Positions 50,801-56,800 of a DNA stretch of 64,000 nt are shown in pieces; within the stretch, counting starts at the first letter, position 1, and each line of letters begins with the position of its first letter. The position numbers were made by a program. Origin of the DNA: Escherichia coli (lineage in GTDB: Bacteria; Pseudomonadota; Gammaproteobacteria; Enterobacterales; Enterobacteriaceae); assembly GCF_016026235.1 (NCBI RefSeq), contig NZ_CP065613.1. One strand, written 5' to 3'.

Positions 50801-53800
50801 ACCAGTAAAATGCAAACGACGCACCACGCTGGGAAAATCGCTGCTATTCAGCAGAGTTTTGTACCGAGAATTGTGGCCAGCCACTTATTGCTCTCGCGTA
50901 AGCAGGTATCCCTATCGTTTACCAGTCCAGCACATCTTGTGGTCAGGCAGAAGAAGAGCAAACTGTTACTGGACTCACTGCATGCATGGTGGAGAAAAAT
51001 GCCACGCTATCCAAAAATCCAGACTGGGAGAATGGTTCAGCTGTGTACTGAATCAGTGGGGCGCACTCTGTTATTACAGTGTTGACGGTCAGGCGGAGGC
51101 AGACATAATGCCGCGGAAAAAGCCCTTTGTGCCATCTGTCTCGGAAATAAAAACTTTATGTTCTTCGGCGGCGAGCGCAGTGCACTGTTGTATGGGCTTA
51201 TCGGCACTTGCCTTCTGAACGACATTGATCCGGAAGCGTATCTGCGCCATATCCTGAGCGTACTGCCGGAATAACCTTCCAACCGTATTGATGAACTCCT
51301 GCCATGGAACGTAGCACTCACCAATAAATAAGCGTCAATACGGCACTCCGTTAACGCTGATATGACTTTCCGTGTCAAACCGGAATCTCTAATTTTGACG
51401 ATTTTCTTTTTAGGTTTAATTCCCTGAGGGCGACGTAGCAGTAAATCCGACGGTGAATCACGCTGATATTCGCGGGTTGGATACCGCATTACAGAGGTCC
51501 GTCATATGAGCCTGCCACTTTCTTACGTCGCGAATCAGCTTTGTTCCGCCGTCGCCAAGCGCTAACGTGGGTTACTCTTGTACCGGGCTACGTCGCCTTC
51601 AGGGAACTGGTTATTCTCATTTTTTATTTGTGACATTGTGGTTGTTGTGCGACAGACATTGCTATTCGGCCCATATCCCAGATAAAACCCGCCAGCTCAC
51701 GTGCAACAGCAACAATTGTAATATTGACATTCTTTCCTTTGGCCTGAAGTTTTCGATACCTCTTACAAAGCCTGAGTTGAGCATCCCATGCTCTGTCAAT
51801 GACGGGGCGGGGTAAATTTTCCTGCCTTTTTGTATTGCCGGACTGATGCGTGCCGGATGACGGTAACTCCACGCTGCCTCGACCAATAGCTTTCTGGCAT
51901 AGCTGTTTCCGGCTTTGGTAATGCTGCCCTGATGTCTGCTTCCACCCGATGAATATTCTGATGGCGTGATACCAAACCATGACATCAGTTGTCGTGGATG
52001 TTCAAAACGGGTCAGATCACCCAGTTCAGAAATTAATCCAACCGCAGTAATAAACTGAATCCCTCGCATGGCTTGCAGCGCCTCTACTACCGGATACAGC
52101 CTCCATTCGGTAACGGCCTCCTTCAGGGCGGATTCCAGCCGTTCACATTGTGCCTGCCGGTCTTCTATTGTACGACGGTGTTCGTCAAAAGCTAATTGTC
52201 GCCAGGGACTTTCGAATGAGTATTTGCTGAGCCAGCGTCGGTGTGCAGGGCCCCAATCTGCTCGCCCGACATAATGGACCCCATGAACCAGAAGAAACGA
52301 TTTCAGACGTTGCCTTGCATGCCGTAAATCATCGCGGGCAGATGCCCATGCCCGGGCCAAATCCCGGAATGCCTCATCTTCAATGCCGGGTACGTAGACA
52401 GCAGAAAGATCTCCTGCACGCAGTGAACGCACAAGTCTGATGGCATCACGGCGATCGGTTTTAACCCGCTCCCCCGGTTTTTTCGGGATAAGTGAGGGGG
52501 CGCAGACCATGCAGTCAAAACCGGATTTCACCAGCCGACGATAAAGTCCATAACCACAGGGCCCCGCTTCATAAACGATACTGACCTGCGATGACTTTGA
52601 CCTGAGACGTTTACAAAGATTCTGAATATCAGTAGGTGATGTGCCAATTTTACCCATCAGTTCAACAGGTTCTGAATTGATAGCATAAGCGACAGTAATC
52701 GATTCTTTGTGAACATCTAACCCGACGTACAATGTGTTATTGTTGTTCATGCTGGCCTCCGTGGTGGAAATACCGGGGTGTAGCAACAGCTCACCCATGC
52801 GGCTCTGACAACGATGTTAACCCGCGTTAAATATCCCACGTTGGCCAGCATCTGTCTCACGGAAAGTCATACTGCCTTACCTTTTCTCAGGCTATTTTTG
52901 CTTTTTTTTGCTTTTCCCCGCCACTTTATGGTGATTATCACATCAATATACATCGATAGATATTAACGTAACTGAAGTGAGGTGAAGCATGAAATTTGAA
53001 CGCCATCATGAAATATTGAAACGACTCAGTAAATTCGGTTCTGTAAAAGTATCCGATCTGTCCAATAGCCTCAATGTAACGAAAGAAACTATTCGTTCAG
53101 ATCTTAATGAACTTGCCAGGCTTGGCTATCTGACTCGATGTCATGGCGGTGCTTTTATCGTCCTAGACTCGCTTGATACTATTGCGAAAAATGAAATCGC
53201 TTATGCGCTTGAAAATTATGATACAGCCCAGGGAATAAAAAAAGGCCACTCAACTATGAAAAGTCAAGTATGCGTTATTGGTTCGTTTAATGTTGATATC
53301 ATCAGTTATTTGCCGAGGCTTCCCACTATCGGAGAATCGCTTCTGGCAAGTAATTTTATATTTTCACCGGGGGGAAAAGGCTGTAACCAGGCGCTGGCAG
53401 CAAGCTTTGCCGATACTGATGTTTATTTCATAACAAAAGTAGGTACAGATCACTTTAGTGATTATGCGATCAACTTTATGAATTCGTCTAAGATTTATAA
53501 AAGTATAATTTATCAAACGAAAGAAACGCAAACCGGAACTGCCACGATCCTTGTTAATGAAGGTACTGGCGATAATGTTATTGCGATCTATCCCGGTGCC
53601 AACATGACAATGTCGTCCGATGAAATAACTATTCAGAAAGAAGCGATTATTAATTCTGATGTCATACTTCTGCAGCTCGAAACAAATTATACCGCTCTGC
53701 AACAAGCGATCACATTGGCGCAAAAAAACAGTATCCCGGTCATTATTAACCCGGCACCCTATAATGATATCGTCAACGAACTTATTCAGGATGTTGATTA

Positions 53801-56800
53801 TATCACCCCCAATGAAACAGAAGCTGGTTTACTGTCCGGCATAGACGTACACGATCTTGAATCAGCTAAACGAGCTGCAGAAGCTATCCACAATAAAGGG
53901 GTAAAAAACACGGTTATCACGCTCGGTAGCAAGGGCTCGCTCGCATTTGATGGCAAAAAATTCATTCATTCGCCAGCGTTTCCAGCGGTCGTTAAAAATA
54001 CGGCAGGAGCCGGGGATGCGTTTAACGGCTCTCTGGCATCAGGACTTGCGAAAGGAAAATCACTGGAATCAGCACTGTGTTATGCCAGCGCCTTTGCATC
54101 CCTAGCGGTGGAGACAAGCAATGCTTCCGACATGCCTGAACATGAATCTGTGATACATCGAATTCAGAGTATACATTATCAGCAAACTATTTTTACGCAT
54201 TAAGAAGGGACAGAGAATGAATAACACCAAAAAATCACTAAAAGTGCTCTTTATTGGGGAATCCTGGCATATTCATATGATTCATTCAAAAGGATATGAC
54301 AGTTTTACCTCAAGTAAATATGAAGAAGGTGCGACCTGGTTACTCCAGTGTCTGAAAAATAGTCAGGTAGATGTCACCTATATGCCAGCACATACGGTAC
54401 AAATTGCCTTCCCTGAAGATGTGGCACAGTTAGAACAATATGATGCCATCGTTATTAGTGATATTGGTAGTAATACTTTCCTGCTACAAAATGATACTTT
54501 TTATCAGCTTCGCATAAAACCAAACGCTCTCGAACTGATTAAAGAATATGTGAATAACGGTGGTGGGTTATTGATGATTGGCGGCTATCTCTCATTCATG
54601 GGAATTGAAGCAAAAGCCAATTATAAAAATACAGTTCTGGCTGATGTGCTCCCGGTTACGATGTTAGATGGTGACGATCGTGTCGAAAAACCAGAGGGTG
54701 TTATTGCACAGCCATCACAACCTGAACATCCAGTTATTAAAGGGTTCTCTGAATATCCTTTTTTCCTAGGTTATAACCGGGCGATCGCTAAAGAAAATGC
54801 TGAGGTGGTATTAACAATAAACAACGCTCCATTACTGGTCTTTGGTAACTATCACAACGGGAAAATAGCCTGCTTTATGAGTGACTGTTCACCGCACTGG
54901 GGTACACAGCAGTTTATGTCCTGGCCGTTCTATACCGCGTTGTGGGTAAATATACTGACTCATATTGCAAGATAATAATAATAATGGGGTAACTCCAGTT
55001 ACTCCATTTACTATAATAGAAGGATTGATGTATGAAAAAGAATAAGTACTCAACTCCCTTATGGATGCTTGCCACGATTCTTGCGGGTATGCTCTCCCCT
55101 ATGCAATCAGCGGTGAATGGTCAATTAGGTCACTGGTTACAGGATGGTAATGCATGCGCAGTTATCTCCTTTGCCAGTGGTTTAGTCGTGATGTTTTTTA
55201 TTATTATGGCGCGAAAAGAAACCCGGCAACAATTTGCGGCAATTCCTTCTCTGATTAAAAACCGAAAAGTTCCTCTCTGGAACTGGTTTGCCGGTCTCTG
55301 TGGAGCGATGGTGGTATTTTCTGAAGGCGCATCAGCCAGCGCACTCGGGGTCGCAACGTTTCAAACCGCACTGATCTCCGCGCTATTGCTGTCTGGTTTA
55401 CTTTGCGATCGCTTTGGTATCGGTGTCGACGAGAAAAAATACTTTACCCCTTATCGCATCATCGGTGCATTATTTGCGGTTATTGCTACGATTTTTGTTG
55501 TGTCACCTCAGTGGCATTCTACCTCTTTCATCTTACTTGCCATTCTTCCGTTCTTAGCTGGTTTGCTTGCAGGATGGCAGCCCGCTGGAAATGCAAAAGT
55601 AGCTGAAGCTACGGGATCCATGCTGGTTTCAATCACCTAGAATTTCATCGTTGGATTTTGTGTTTTAGGCACAGCGCTAGCTATTCGTGTCGCATTAGGG
55701 CACGTCACTGTTCAATTACCAGATGTCTGGTGGATGTATCTTGGCGGCCCGCTTGGACTAATGTCTATCGGTTTAATGGCCATTTTGGTCAGAGGTCTGG
55801 GGTTACTGATGCTGGGGGTTGCTTCAACGGCGGGCCAGTTACTGGGATCAGTATTGATTGACGTATTAATTCCATCGCTGGGCAATAGCGTTTATCTGGT
55901 CACGATCATCGGAACACTGTTTGCACTGGTCGGTGCAATTGTTACCACTATTCCGGAATACAGAACCTCGAAAACAATGAAGAAAATGGAGGTATAATCA
56001 TGAAAGATTATCTACAAACTGTGACGGGCCCCGTCGCCCGTGAAGATATGGGGCTAACACTTCCTCATGAACATCTGTTCAACGATCTTTCCTCTGTTGT
56101 GGATGCTCCTTGCTATCCTTTTTCACAACGGCTTGTTGATAAAAAAGTCACGGCAGAAATCCAGTGGGCATTAAAACACGATCCTTATTGCTGCGCTGAT
56201 AATATGGACCGCAAACCTATTGAAGATGTGATCTTCGAAATTAATAACTTTATCTCGCTCGGTGGTCGCACCATTGTTGATGCCACAGGGTCTGAGTCTA
56301 TCGGACGAGATGCGCAGGCATTACGAGAAGTCGCATTAAAAACAGGTCTGAATATTGTTGCTTCCTCCGGTCCCTACCTGGAAAAATTTGAAAGCCAGAG
56401 AATTCATAAAACGGTTGATGAACTGGCGACAACGATCGATAAAGAATTGAATCAAGGGATTGGCGATACGGATATTCGTGCCGGAATGATCGGTGAAATA
56501 GGTGTTTCACCGACATTTACCGAAGCCGAGCATAACAGCTTGCGGGCTGCCTCGCTGGCACAGATTAACAATCCTCATGTGGCGATGAATATTCACATGC
56601 CGGGCTGGCTTCGTCGCGGTGATGAAGTACTCGACATTGTGTTAGGTGAAATGGGCGTCTCGCCAAATAAAGTCTCTCTCGCACACTCGGATCCGTCAGG
56701 AAAAGACGTGGCGTATCAGCGGAAAATGCTTGATAGAGGTGTCTGGCTGGAATTCGACATGATTGGCCTAGACATTACCTTCCCGAAAGAGGGAATAGCG

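What the first reader, a model, noticed from the sequence alone, without database searches (positions are those of the whole stretch)
52989..54203. Unusual DeoR HTH - ribokinase (PfkB) domain fusion
Residues ~1-60 form a DeoR-type HTH, and the rest carries both ribokinase signature motifs (GGKGCNQA; NTAGAGDAFNG). DeoR regulators normally carry a sugar-phosphate-binding effector domain, not a kinase. The protein could be a bifunctional repressor/kinase, analogous in logic to ROK-family proteins but on a different fold.
Basis: seen in the sequence. Interest (0 to 1): 0.7.

Follow-up and report, generated by a model that had tools for sequence, protein, structure and literature searches.

The report
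DeoR-HTH fused to ribokinase (RikA ortholog)

Summary
ORF 52989-54203 (404 aa) has HTH_DeoR at residues 5-56 and PfkB at 92-382, with every ribokinase catalytic and ribose-binding residue intact. It is not a frameshift artefact: the same architecture occurs across Enterobacterales, Orbales, Vibrio, Shewanella and Aeromonas.

The protein is 80% identical to Salmonella STM3547/RikA. A 2026 paper showed RikA is an active ribose kinase, noted the DeoR domain, and recovered only a ~35 kDa product apparently starting at Met90.

My comparative analysis adds three points.
- The HTH is under purifying selection almost as strong as the kinase, and Met1 has a strong conserved SD. A full-length product must therefore be made.
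- Codon 90 is ATG or GTG, preceded by an SD-like motif, in all 13 orthologs compared. This fits a second, kinase-only product.
- Every promoter of these genes carries the same module: two 10-bp direct repeats (TTTTTGYTTT), a CRP-like site at -41.5, and a -10.

Best reading: a CRP-dependent, self-regulated trigger enzyme at the head of a four-gene catabolic cassette. DNA binding remains untested. Interest is moderate.

The parts
52895..52904 (+). Direct repeat 1 (TTTTTGCTTT), about -81..-72; candidate operator half-site for the DeoR HTH
   Evidence: The pattern TTYYGNTTWYTTYYGNTT gives 15 hits in 1.14 Mb of fetched DNA, all upstream of an HTH-PfkB gene; the 11 with a recorded start lie 92-127 nt upstream of it. 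It occurs once in the 64-kb window.
52905..52914 (+). Direct repeat 2 (TTTTTGCTTT), about -71..-62, 10-bp period with repeat 1
   Evidence: Four copies in Providencia, 3-4 in Orbus, and the CTTCCGTTTA x2 variant in Pectobacterium.
52927..52942 (+). CRP-like site TATGG-N6-TCACA, centred at about -41.5 (class II position)
   Evidence: TATGR-N6-TCAC(A/T) is conserved in all 12 aligned promoters. The composite with the -10 gives 13 hits in 1.14 Mb, all upstream of an HTH-PfkB gene; the 10 with a recorded start lie 61-67 nt upstream. Assignment to CRP is an inference from the known consensus TGTGA-N6-TCACA.
52964..52969 (+). -10 hexamer TAACGT (TANNNT), 21 nt after the CRP-like site; no -35
   Evidence: T1, A2 and T6 are conserved at the same distance in the orthologous promoters.
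52979..52985 (+). Shine-Dalgarno GAGGTGA for Met1
   Evidence: Anti-SD duplex -9.2 kcal/mol here and -4.5 to -9.2 in the 12 orthologs with enough upstream sequence (-6.9 to -9.2 in 10 of them).
52989..54203 (+). Full-length CDS, 404 aa: DeoR-HTH / linker / PfkB ribokinase; E. coli ortholog of Salmonella RikA (STM3547); RefSeq WP_000667430.1
53001..53156 (+). HTH_DeoR domain (residues 5-56); recognition helix TKETIRSDLNEL
   Evidence: Pfam E 4.9e-15. AgaR-type HTH E 2.7e-11. Invariant R5 I9 V21 V30 E33 T34 R36 D38 L39 L42 R50 G53 G54 A55. dN/dS 0.08-0.29.
53163..53255 (+). Disordered interdomain linker (residues 59-89)
   Evidence: pLDDT<50. Mean pairwise identity 25%, against 53% for the HTH and 58% for the kinase.
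53237..53243 (+). A7 homopolymer in the linker; mutational hot spot that splits the gene
   Evidence: The A6 variant is in at least 26 complete genomes and is annotated 'frameshifted'. The resulting ORFs are an 89-aa HTH-only protein and a 315-aa kinase starting at Met90.
53241..53245 (+). Internal SD-like AAAGG, 10 nt before the Met90 codon
   Evidence: An SD-like purine motif lies upstream of codon 90 in all 13 orthologs and is carried by different amino-acid contexts (KKG, DKD, ER).
53256..53258 (+). Codon 90 ATG: probable internal in-frame start for a kinase-only product
   Evidence: ATG in 11 and GTG in 2 of 13 orthologs. It is one of only 2 of 388 alignment columns where every sequence has a start codon. 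A ~35 kDa product was seen in Salmonella. It is not conserved in distant fused relatives.
53262..54134 (+). PfkB ribokinase domain (residues 92-382)
   Evidence: Pfam E 1.2e-64. E. coli RbsK 1GQT E 5e-52. Foldseek TM 0.91-0.93 to 1RK2/1RKD.
53370..53393 (+). PfkB signature 1, GGKGCNQA (G128-A135; equivalents of RbsK G41 G42 K43 N46)
53811..53822 (+). NXXE motif N275-E-T-E278 (RbsK N187/E190)
53997..54029 (+). PfkB signature 2, NTAGAGDAFNG; catalytic Asp343 at 54015-54017 (RbsK D255)
   Evidence: D343A abolishes activity in RikA.
54217..54975 (+). Cassette gene 2: GATase1_like (PF07090), ortholog of STM3548 (PDB 2GK3)
55032..55997 (+). Cassette gene 3: DMT_YdcZ transporter, here a pseudogene with an in-frame stop at 55638-55640
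56000..57034 (+). Cassette gene 4: PTE-family amidohydrolase, ortholog of Proteus Pmi1525 (PDB 3RHG/4QSF)
57042..57068 (.). GC-rich 12-bp-stem hairpin after the last cassette gene (terminator-like)

Best explanation
The gene is the E. coli ortholog of Salmonella RikA. It encodes an active ribokinase-type PfkB kinase, and its full-length product also carries a functional DeoR-type winged-helix domain. It is the first gene and the only regulator of a mobile four-gene cassette (kinase/regulator, GATase1-like protein, DMT transporter, Pmi1525-type esterase). The cassette is transcribed from a class II CRP-dependent promoter.

My inferred mechanism is as follows. The full-length protein dimerises through the ribokinase lid, as RbsK does. 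Its two flexibly tethered HTHs bind the tandem 10-bp direct repeats at about -62 to -81, just upstream of the CRP site. This modulates transcription of its own operon, most likely by repression or anti-activation. Binding of the sugar substrate (ribose or a ribose-like product of the cassette), with or without ATP, relieves the effect.

In the Escherichia/Salmonella/Klebsiella/Rahnella clades, an in-frame internal start at codon 90 probably also yields a kinase-only product.

Status of each step:
- Shown here: the domain architecture and intact catalytic residues.
- Shown for the ortholog in the literature: kinase activity and the short product.
- Shown here by comparative analysis: selection on the HTH, and the conserved promoter module.
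- Inferred only: DNA binding, the identity of the operator, the sign of regulation and the effector.
For: Architecture and fold.

Catalytic and ribose-binding residues are conserved against E. coli RbsK: N101, D103, G128-G129-K130, N133, E231, N275/E278 and D343.

The 80% ortholog RikA is a ribose kinase (Km 2 mM). D343A is inactive, and the full-length MBP fusion is active.

The HTH is translated and under selection:
- dN/dS is 0.08-0.29.
- Mean identity is 53%, against 58% for the kinase and 25% for the linker.
- Fourteen HTH columns are invariant, including the DeoR signature TxR-D-L and HGGA.
- The ORF is unbroken in relatives as far as Vibrio and Shewanella, which lack Met90.
- Met1 has a strong, conserved SD.

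The protein is always the first gene and the only regulator in three different cassette types and in many chromosomal contexts.

The promoter module is conserved. In 1.14 Mb of fetched DNA the direct-repeat pair (15 hits) and the CRP-like/-10 composite (13 hits) occur only upstream of HTH-PfkB genes. The repeat unit changes sequence but keeps its 10-bp period in Pectobacterium (CTTCCGTTTA x2), which argues against mere A/T-tract curvature. Related half-sites appear in other arrangements: GTTCGTTT as an inverted repeat in Shewanella, and GTTCACTTT twice in direct orientation in Vibrio.

Internal start: ATG or GTG plus an SD-like motif in 13 of 13 orthologs, and the ~35 kDa product in Salmonella.
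Against: - No DNA-binding experiment exists for any family member.
- In Salmonella, only a ~35 kDa C-tagged product was recovered from the soluble fraction, and no 45 kDa species was seen.
- The 30-residue disordered linker makes rigid allosteric coupling between kinase and HTH unlikely.
- The repeats lie upstream of the CRP site. That position is as typical of activators as of repressors.
- The T-rich repeats could in part be UP-element-like or curved DNA.
- The Met90 column ranks only 19th of 388 for SD strength. Met90 is not conserved in distant fused relatives.
- RikA's kcat is about 100-fold below that of RbsK, and the authors suspect ribose is not the native substrate.
- In this E. coli lineage the cassette's transporter is a pseudogene, so the system may be decaying here.
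Confidence: 0.55

Rival explanations
1. Full-length protein is the only translation product. The ~35 kDa species in Salmonella is a proteolytic fragment cut in the disordered, Lys-rich linker, or the only soluble fraction of the protein. Conservation of Met90 is a relic of the ancestral kinase start or has a structural reason.
For: - The linker at residues 59-90 is predicted to be disordered and contains KK.
- H6-tagged full-length RikA was insoluble, and only clarified lysate was analysed.
- The 35 kDa band was identified by tryptic MS only, with no N-terminal mapping reported.
- The Met1 SD is much stronger than the Met90 SD (-9.2 vs -3.2 kcal/mol).
- Distant fused relatives have no Met at this position.
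- Stand-alone ribokinases start exactly here.
Against: - ATG or GTG is kept in 13 of 13 orthologs within a linker that is only 25% identical overall.
- Where Met is lost, the replacement is Val encoded by GTG.
- The SD-like motif is maintained through different codons.
Confidence: 0.22
2. The protein effectively begins at Met90, as the title of section 2.5 of the RikA paper suggests. On this view the upstream 89 codons are a mis-annotated or vestigial leader with no protein function.
For: - Only the ~35 kDa product was recovered, and RikA90-404 complements growth on ribose.
- Frameshift variants that separate the HTH from the kinase exist in natural E. coli and Salmonella.
Against: - An untranslated leader would not keep an open, in-frame 89-codon DeoR HTH with dN/dS 0.08-0.29 and 14 invariant residues across genera.
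- It would not keep a strong SD at Met1.
- The fusion exists in relatives that have no internal Met.
- The split variants are rare (at least 26 genomes, against 1908 of 5426 that carry the locus) and are called pseudogenes.
Confidence: 0.07
3. The HTH is functional, but its operator is the palindromic TATGA-N6-TCACA element at -41.5 and not the T-rich repeats. The fusion protein would then act as a class II activator, and the repeats would be UP-like or curved DNA, or the site of another factor.
For: - The element is as strictly linked to HTH-PfkB genes as the repeats are.
- It sits where an activator replaces a missing -35.
- Some DeoR-family proteins bind palindromes and a few are activators (general knowledge).
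Against: - The element matches 8-9 of 10 positions of the CRP consensus, including a perfect TCACA half-site. CRP control is the norm for enterobacterial sugar operons.
- In Shewanella and Vibrio the promoters lack this element but carry repeats resembling the T-rich unit.
Confidence: 0.1
4. The protein is primarily a sugar-sensing regulator, and the kinase domain serves mainly as the ligand-binding module. The measured ribose kinase activity would be a slow side activity of little metabolic importance.
For: - RikA's kcat and kcat/Km are about two orders of magnitude below those of RbsK.
- The authors call the ribose activity possibly moonlighting.
- The protein scores just below NCBI's ribokinase equivalog cut-off (284 vs 299.65 bits).
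Against: - All catalytic residues are invariant across the family, which pure sensors such as BzdR or ROK repressors tend not to keep.
- Chromosomal rikA alone supports growth on ribose.
- Related family members sit beside nucleoside hydrolases and transporters, where a ribokinase is metabolically required.
Confidence: 0.12

Closest known systems
RikA (STM3547) of Salmonella enterica LT2 (McCormick, Jabbar & Escalante-Semerena, Mol Microbiol 2026; PMC13432705)
   Same: 80% identical over all 404 residues, with the same HTH_DeoR+PfkB architecture, D343 and Met90. The four-gene cassette is the same (GATase1_like, DMT_YdcZ, PTE), as is the promoter module.
   Different: The chromosomal site differs: in E. 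coli it is an island next to cobUST flanked by IS elements, and in Salmonella it lies between yhhY and ggt. The E. coli transporter gene carries an internal stop. Nothing has been measured for the E. coli protein.
E. coli ribokinase RbsK (PDB 1RKD/1GQT)
   Same: The kinase domain is 35-37% identical with TM 0.91-0.93. All ribose, ATP-anion-hole, NXXE and catalytic residues are conserved.
   Different: RbsK has no DNA-binding domain and is regulated by a separate LacI-type repressor, RbsR. RikA is about 100-fold slower. The window protein scores below the NCBIfam ribokinase equivalog cut-offs.
Classical DeoR-family regulators (AgaR, GlpR, DeoR, FruR)
   Same: The N-terminal HTH_DeoR carries the family signature. 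The HTH scores best against AgaR (E 2.7e-11). From my own knowledge, AgaR-type operators are also T-rich repeated units.
   Different: The C-terminal DeoRC sugar-phosphate sensor and oligomerisation domain (PF00455) is absent and replaced by a catalytically competent PfkB kinase.
YeiI of E. coli K-12 (uncharacterised)
   Same: An N-terminal winged helix is fused to a PfkB kinase. The gene lies next to a nucleoside transporter and a ribonucleoside hydrolase, as in one branch of the present family. It is listed among hypothetical transcription factors.
   Different: This is an independent fusion. The HTH family differs (HTH_24), the linker is short, and the kinase is only 22% identical and belongs to the pseudouridine-kinase branch.
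Enzyme-regulator fusions / trigger enzymes: archaeal RbkR (HTH + riboflavin kinase, PMC5397151), BzdR (HTH + shikimate-kinase-like, PMC3602430); BirA and NadR (from my own knowledge)
   Same: The logic is the same: a DNA-binding domain tethered to a small-molecule kinase or ligase domain that senses its own substrate. RbkR retains activity, as RikA does.
   Different: The folds and HTH families differ. For RbkR and BzdR, DNA binding and effector control are demonstrated. Here they are only inferred.
ROK-family repressors (Mlc, NagC, XylR)
   Different: The fold is unrelated (actin-like ATPase rather than ribokinase-like). No ROK Pfam match was found. From my own knowledge, ROK repressors are generally not active kinases.

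Membership tests
PfkB / ribokinase family | PfkB fold and profile match | tested here: met
   PF00294 E 1.2e-64 over residues 92-382. Foldseek TM 0.91-0.93 to E. coli RbsK.
PfkB / ribokinase family | Signature 1 (GG dipeptide, GGKG-NQA) and signature 2 with catalytic Asp in GAGD | tested here: met
   G128 G129 K130 G131 N133 and G340 A341 G342 D343 are invariant in 17 homologs.
PfkB / ribokinase family | NXXE motif and RbsK ribose-binding residues (N14, D16, K43, N46, E143) | tested here: met
   N275/E278, N101, D103, K130, N133 and E231 by alignment to 1GQT.
PfkB / ribokinase family | Score above NCBIfam ribokinase equivalog cut-off | tested here: not met
   TIGR02152 scores 284.2 against a cut-off of 299.65. 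NF008353 scores 253.4 against 341. The protein is a ribokinase-like paralog, not the RbsK equivalog.
PfkB / ribokinase family | ATP-dependent sugar kinase activity | not testable with these tools
   Shown for the 80% ortholog RikA (ribose Km 2 mM; D343A dead) in PMC13432705. Not measured for the E. coli protein.
RikA (STM3547) orthologous group | Full-length high identity plus conserved synteny with GATase1_like, DMT_YdcZ and PTE genes | tested here: met
   80% identity at 100% coverage. The same gene order is found in Salmonella, S. bongori, Klebsiella, Citrobacter, Budvicia, Providencia and Orbus.
DeoR family of transcriptional regulators | N-terminal HTH_DeoR with family signature | tested here: met
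   PF08220 E 4.9e-15. T34-I-R36-x-D38-L39 and H52?G53G54A55 are conserved.
DeoR family of transcriptional regulators | C-terminal DeoRC effector/oligomerisation domain (PF00455) | tested here: not met
   No DeoRC match; PfkB occupies residues 92-382. The protein shares the DeoR HTH only and is not a canonical family member.
DeoR family of transcriptional regulators | Sequence-specific operator binding modulated by a sugar or sugar phosphate | not testable with these tools
   Only indirect evidence: conserved direct repeats linked to the gene and purifying selection on the HTH.
Bifunctional enzyme-regulators (trigger enzymes such as RbkR, BirA, NadR) | One polypeptide that both catalyses and binds DNA | tested here: inconclusive
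   Sequence evidence says the full-length product is made and selected. The only protein-level experiment on the ortholog recovered the short form.
ROK family | ROK (actin-like ATPase) sugar-kinase domain | tested here: not met
   No ROK match among the Pfam hits; the fold is ribokinase-like.

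The most novel reading that the evidence does not exclude
One gene makes two in-frame proteins from two conserved start sites. The first is a DNA-binding kinase (Met1). The second is a kinase-only isoform (Met90) that shares the dimer interface and can therefore form heterodimers with only one HTH. The ratio of the two products, together with substrate-induced lid closure, would set how tightly the tandem repeats are occupied. That would be a self-titrating trigger enzyme in which the enzyme isoform acts as a built-in antagonist of the regulator isoform.
Probability: 0.2. Interest if true: 0.65.

Novelty: new member of a known kind. Interest (0 to 1): 0.4.

Why it matters
Until June 2026 this was a poorly named accessory gene, labelled variously 'ribokinase', 'PfkB kinase' or 'DeoR regulator'. 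It is present in about a third of sequenced E. coli and in most Salmonella.

The published work settles the kinase half but leaves a contradiction: a conserved DNA-binding domain that was not seen in the protein. The comparative evidence here says the domain is used. It also supplies concrete targets for experiment:
- a roughly 90-bp promoter (52895-52985) with two candidate elements;
- two start codons that can be mutated.

If confirmed, this would add a DeoR-HTH/PfkB pair to the short list of enzymes that regulate their own operons. It would give a handle on the unknown substrate of the RikA / STM3548 / DMT / Pmi1525 cassette, two of whose proteins have orphan crystal structures. It would also fix inconsistent database annotation. 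This is not a new principle of regulation.

Tried and rejected
- **Genome scan lost to generic patterns.** Only L008 and L009 were useful, so orthologous DNA had to be collected one protein at a time.
- **HTH-only homolog search.** Searching with residues 1-89 alone returned only fragments and frameshift products of the same gene, not the parent DeoR lineage. It did expose the split variants.
- **Counting A7 versus A6/A8 alleles by 31-nt megablast.** This failed for A7 and A8, which gave no match, probably because the low-complexity filter masked the run. Only a lower bound of 26 genomes for A6 is available.
- **Two mis-spaced patterns.** The corrected scans are.
- **Internal promoter for the short product.** No sigma-70-like match lies on the + strand between 52989 and 53256.
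- **Programmed -1 frameshifting at A_AAA_AAA (53236-53243).** I considered and rejected this because the run is not conserved outside the Escherichia/Salmonella clade.
- **Frameshift artefact and dead-kinase readings.** Both are rejected.
- **Fold search.** No solved structure contains both domains.

Full report
**Observation.** The window holds an intact 404-codon ORF at 52989-54203 on the + strand. Pfam finds HTH_DeoR at residues 5-56 (E 4.9e-15) and PfkB at 92-382 (E 1.2e-64). The AlphaFold2 model has a confident winged helix (1-58), a disordered linker (59-90, pLDDT<50) and a confident kinase domain. The kinase domain superposes on E. coli ribokinase with target TM 0.91-0.93. No solved structure contains both domains.

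**Kinase residues.** Alignment to RbsK (1GQT) shows every ribose-binding and catalytic residue retained. N14, D16, G41-G42-K43, N46, E143, the NXXE motif and D255 correspond to N101, D103, G128-G129-K130, N133, E231, N275/E278 and D343. All are invariant in 17 homologs. The protein scores just below NCBI's ribokinase equivalog cut-off, 284 against 299.65 bits. It is therefore a ribokinase-like paralog and not RbsK itself.

**Not an artefact, and not rare.**
- The DNA belongs to an E. coli accessory island next to cobUST. It is present at >=80% coverage in 1908 of 5426 complete genomes, and RefSeq calls the product 'PfkB family carbohydrate kinase'.
- Homologs with the same two Pfam domains in one ORF occur in Salmonella (80%), Klebsiella/Citrobacter/Budvicia (about 65%), Providencia (63%), Orbus (about 50%) and Rahnella/Pectobacterium/Brenneria (about 48%).
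- An exhaustive profile search finds about 20 clusters of full-length fusions at the 50% identity level. These include Vibrio, Shewanella, Aeromonas, Morganella and Izhakiella.
- Database names are inconsistent: 'ribokinase', 'PfkB kinase', 'DeoR family regulator'.
- E. coli K-12 carries an independent fusion of another winged helix (HTH_24) to a PfkB kinase. This is YeiI, still uncharacterised.

**What is already published.** The Salmonella ortholog STM3547 was characterised in June 2026 and named RikA (PMC13432705).
- Chromosomal rikA alone supports growth on ribose.
- The purified MBP fusion phosphorylates ribose (Km 2 mM), with kcat about 100-fold below RbsK.
- D343A is inactive, and other pentoses are poor substrates.
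- The authors noted the predicted DeoR domain at residues 2-57. However, a C-terminally tagged protein expressed from the native RBS ran at ~35 kDa, and RikA90-404 complemented.
- They therefore proposed that the protein 'appears to begin' at Met90, without excluding a longer isoform. No DNA-binding test was done.
- They also reported the conserved four-gene neighbourhood and suspected that ribose is not the native substrate.

**Is the HTH used?** Codon alignments of 13 orthologs and paralogs give four lines of evidence.
- dN/dS is 0.08-0.29 for the HTH wherever dS is measurable.
- Mean pairwise identity is 53% for the HTH, 58% for the kinase and only 25% for the linker.
- Fourteen HTH columns are invariant, including the DeoR recognition-helix signature and the HGGA turn.
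- Met1 is preceded by a strong SD (GAGGT). Duplex energies run from -4.5 to -9.2 kcal/mol over the 12 orthologs with enough upstream sequence, and from -6.9 to -9.2 in 10 of them.

Distant fused relatives have no Met at the domain boundary, so there the only possible product is the fusion. An untranslated leader would not behave this way. The full-length protein must be made and selected.

The published 35 kDa result has other possible causes. It came from clarified lysate. H6-tagged full-length RikA was insoluble. The linker is disordered and Lys-rich, and the band was identified by tryptic MS only.

**Is Met90 a real start?** Within the clades that are at least 45% identical, codon 90 is ATG in 11 of 13 and GTG in 2 of 13. 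It is one of only two alignment columns out of 388 in which every sequence has a start codon. An SD-like purine motif lies 6-10 nt upstream in all 13. It is carried by different amino acids (KKG, DKD, ER), which points to selection at the nucleotide level. The signal is moderate: mean -5.0 kcal/mol, rank 19 of 388, behind columns whose SD-likeness is forced by Gly/Lys codons. Together with the experiment, I consider a second, kinase-only product more likely than not in these clades. It is not a family-wide feature.

**Surroundings.** The gene is always first, and is the only regulator, in a cassette of GATase1_like (PF07090), DMT_YdcZ and PTE genes. That cassette sits in different chromosomal contexts in E. 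coli, S. enterica, S. bongori, Klebsiella, Citrobacter, Budvicia, Providencia and Orbus.
- Gene 2 matches the orphan structure STM3548 (2GK3).
- Gene 4 matches Proteus Pmi1525 (3RHG/4QSF).

Paralogous family members head other cassettes:
- nucleoside hydrolase + NupC + MFS in a second Salmonella locus;
- DHDPS-type aldolase + DUF386 + MFS in Rahnella and Pectobacterium;
- a second PfkB kinase + ECF transporter in Vibrio;
- a neighbouring nucleoside hydrolase in Shewanella.

The links to nucleosides and ribose make a ribose-type ligand plausible for the family.

**Promoter.** All enterobacterial and Orbus promoters of these genes, whatever lies downstream, share one module:
- two 10-bp direct repeats TTTTTGYTTT (four in Providencia, three to four in Orbus, CTTCCGTTTA x2 in Pectobacterium);
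- a 12-bp gap;
- TATGR-N6-TCAC(A/T);
- 21 nt;
- a TANNNT -10, with no -35.

In the window these elements are 52895-52914, 52927-52942 and 52964-52969. The predicted +1 is near 52976 and the SD is at 52979-52985.

In 1.14 Mb of fetched DNA, which includes about 80 loci with ordinary ribokinases, the repeat pair gives 15 hits and the palindrome/-10 composite gives 13 hits. Every hit lies upstream of an HTH-PfkB gene. The repeat pair occurs once in the 64-kb window.

The palindrome matches the CRP consensus at 8-9 of 10 positions and is centred at -41.5, which is the class II arrangement. The CRP assignment is an inference from established knowledge.

The repeats are the best candidate for the HTH's operator, for three reasons.
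- They travel with the gene across cassette types.
- They keep their period while changing sequence.
- Related half-sites appear in other arrangements in Shewanella (AAACGAAC-N6-GTTCGTTT) and Vibrio (GTTCACTTT twice).

This is an inference, not a demonstration. The alternative that the HTH binds the -41.5 palindrome as an activator is not excluded.

**Mechanism proposed.** The promoter is CRP-dependent. A dimer of the full-length kinase-regulator occupies the upstream repeats, probably interfering with RNA polymerase alpha-CTD and CRP activation. Sugar binding, which closes the lid at the ribokinase dimer interface, releases it. A kinase-only product from Met90 adds catalytic capacity and might form single-HTH heterodimers.

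| Step | Status |
|---|---|
| Domain architecture, intact catalytic residues, selection on the HTH, conserved promoter module | Shown here |
| Kinase activity, short product | Shown in the literature for the ortholog |
| DNA binding, operator identity, sign of regulation, effector, heterodimers | Inferred |

**Verdict.** The feature is a member of an already catalogued family that has now been partly characterised. It also belongs to a well-known class of enzyme-regulator fusions (RbkR, BzdR, BirA, NadR). The regulatory half and the two-product question are still open and can be tested directly. That justifies moderate interest, not high.

Noticed in passing
window 55032-55997 (stop at 55638-55640): The cassette's DMT_YdcZ transporter gene carries an in-frame stop codon in this E. 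coli lineage, and PGAP flags it 'internal stop'. Salmonella, Klebsiella, Citrobacter and others have an intact 321-323 aa gene. The E. coli cassette may therefore be transport-defective or decaying.
   Followed up: partly
window 57178-57402 (- strand): A 74-aa fragment of gamma-glutamyltransferase lies just after the cassette. In Salmonella the cassette sits next to intact ggt. The E. coli island therefore seems to have been imported together with a piece of a Salmonella-type neighbourhood.
   Followed up: partly
window 53237-53243; L096 1258-2471: An A7 run in the linker just before Met90 is a frameshift hot spot. An A6 allele occurs in at least 26 complete E. coli genomes and is annotated as a frameshifted pseudogene. 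It yields an 89-aa HTH-only ORF whose TGA overlaps the Met90 ATG (ATGA), plus a 315-aa kinase ORF. Similar split forms exist in Salmonella. Whether the split alleles are functional is unknown.
   Followed up: partly
window 51662-52798 (- strand), junction near 52876: An IS110-family (RNA-guided) transposase gene abuts the operon, only about 19 bp upstream of the first direct repeat. Homology with most other E. coli genomes starts at about 52876, and they carry other IS remnants there. The promoter module itself is intact.
   Followed up: partly
window 56000-57034 and 54217-54975: The PTE-like gene is an ortholog of Proteus mirabilis Pmi1525 (PDB 3RHG/4QSF, E 1e-174). The GATase1-like gene matches STM3548 (PDB 2GK3, E 7e-145). 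These are two structural-genomics orphans whose physiological substrates are unknown and which are co-inherited with the kinase.
   Followed up: partly
L095 3701-4789 (E. coli K-12 yeiI): K-12 YeiI is an independent HTH_24+PfkB fusion located beside nupX and rihB. This mirrors the nucleoside-hydrolase context of one branch of the DeoR-PfkB family. It is still uncharacterised.
   Followed up: partly
L098 3918-3941; L097 3863-3875 and 3917-3930: Promoters of distant fused relatives lack the enterobacterial module but have their own repeats. Shewanella has a perfect inverted repeat AAACGAAC-N6-GTTCGTTT, and Vibrio has GTTCACTTT twice in direct orientation. Both resemble the enterobacterial repeat unit.
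   Followed up: no
window 57686-60384: A cluster of IS fragments lies downstream of the island: an ISL3/IS21-like remnant and an IS2 (IS3-family) orfA/orfB. This is consistent with a mosaic, IS-ridden island.
   Followed up: no
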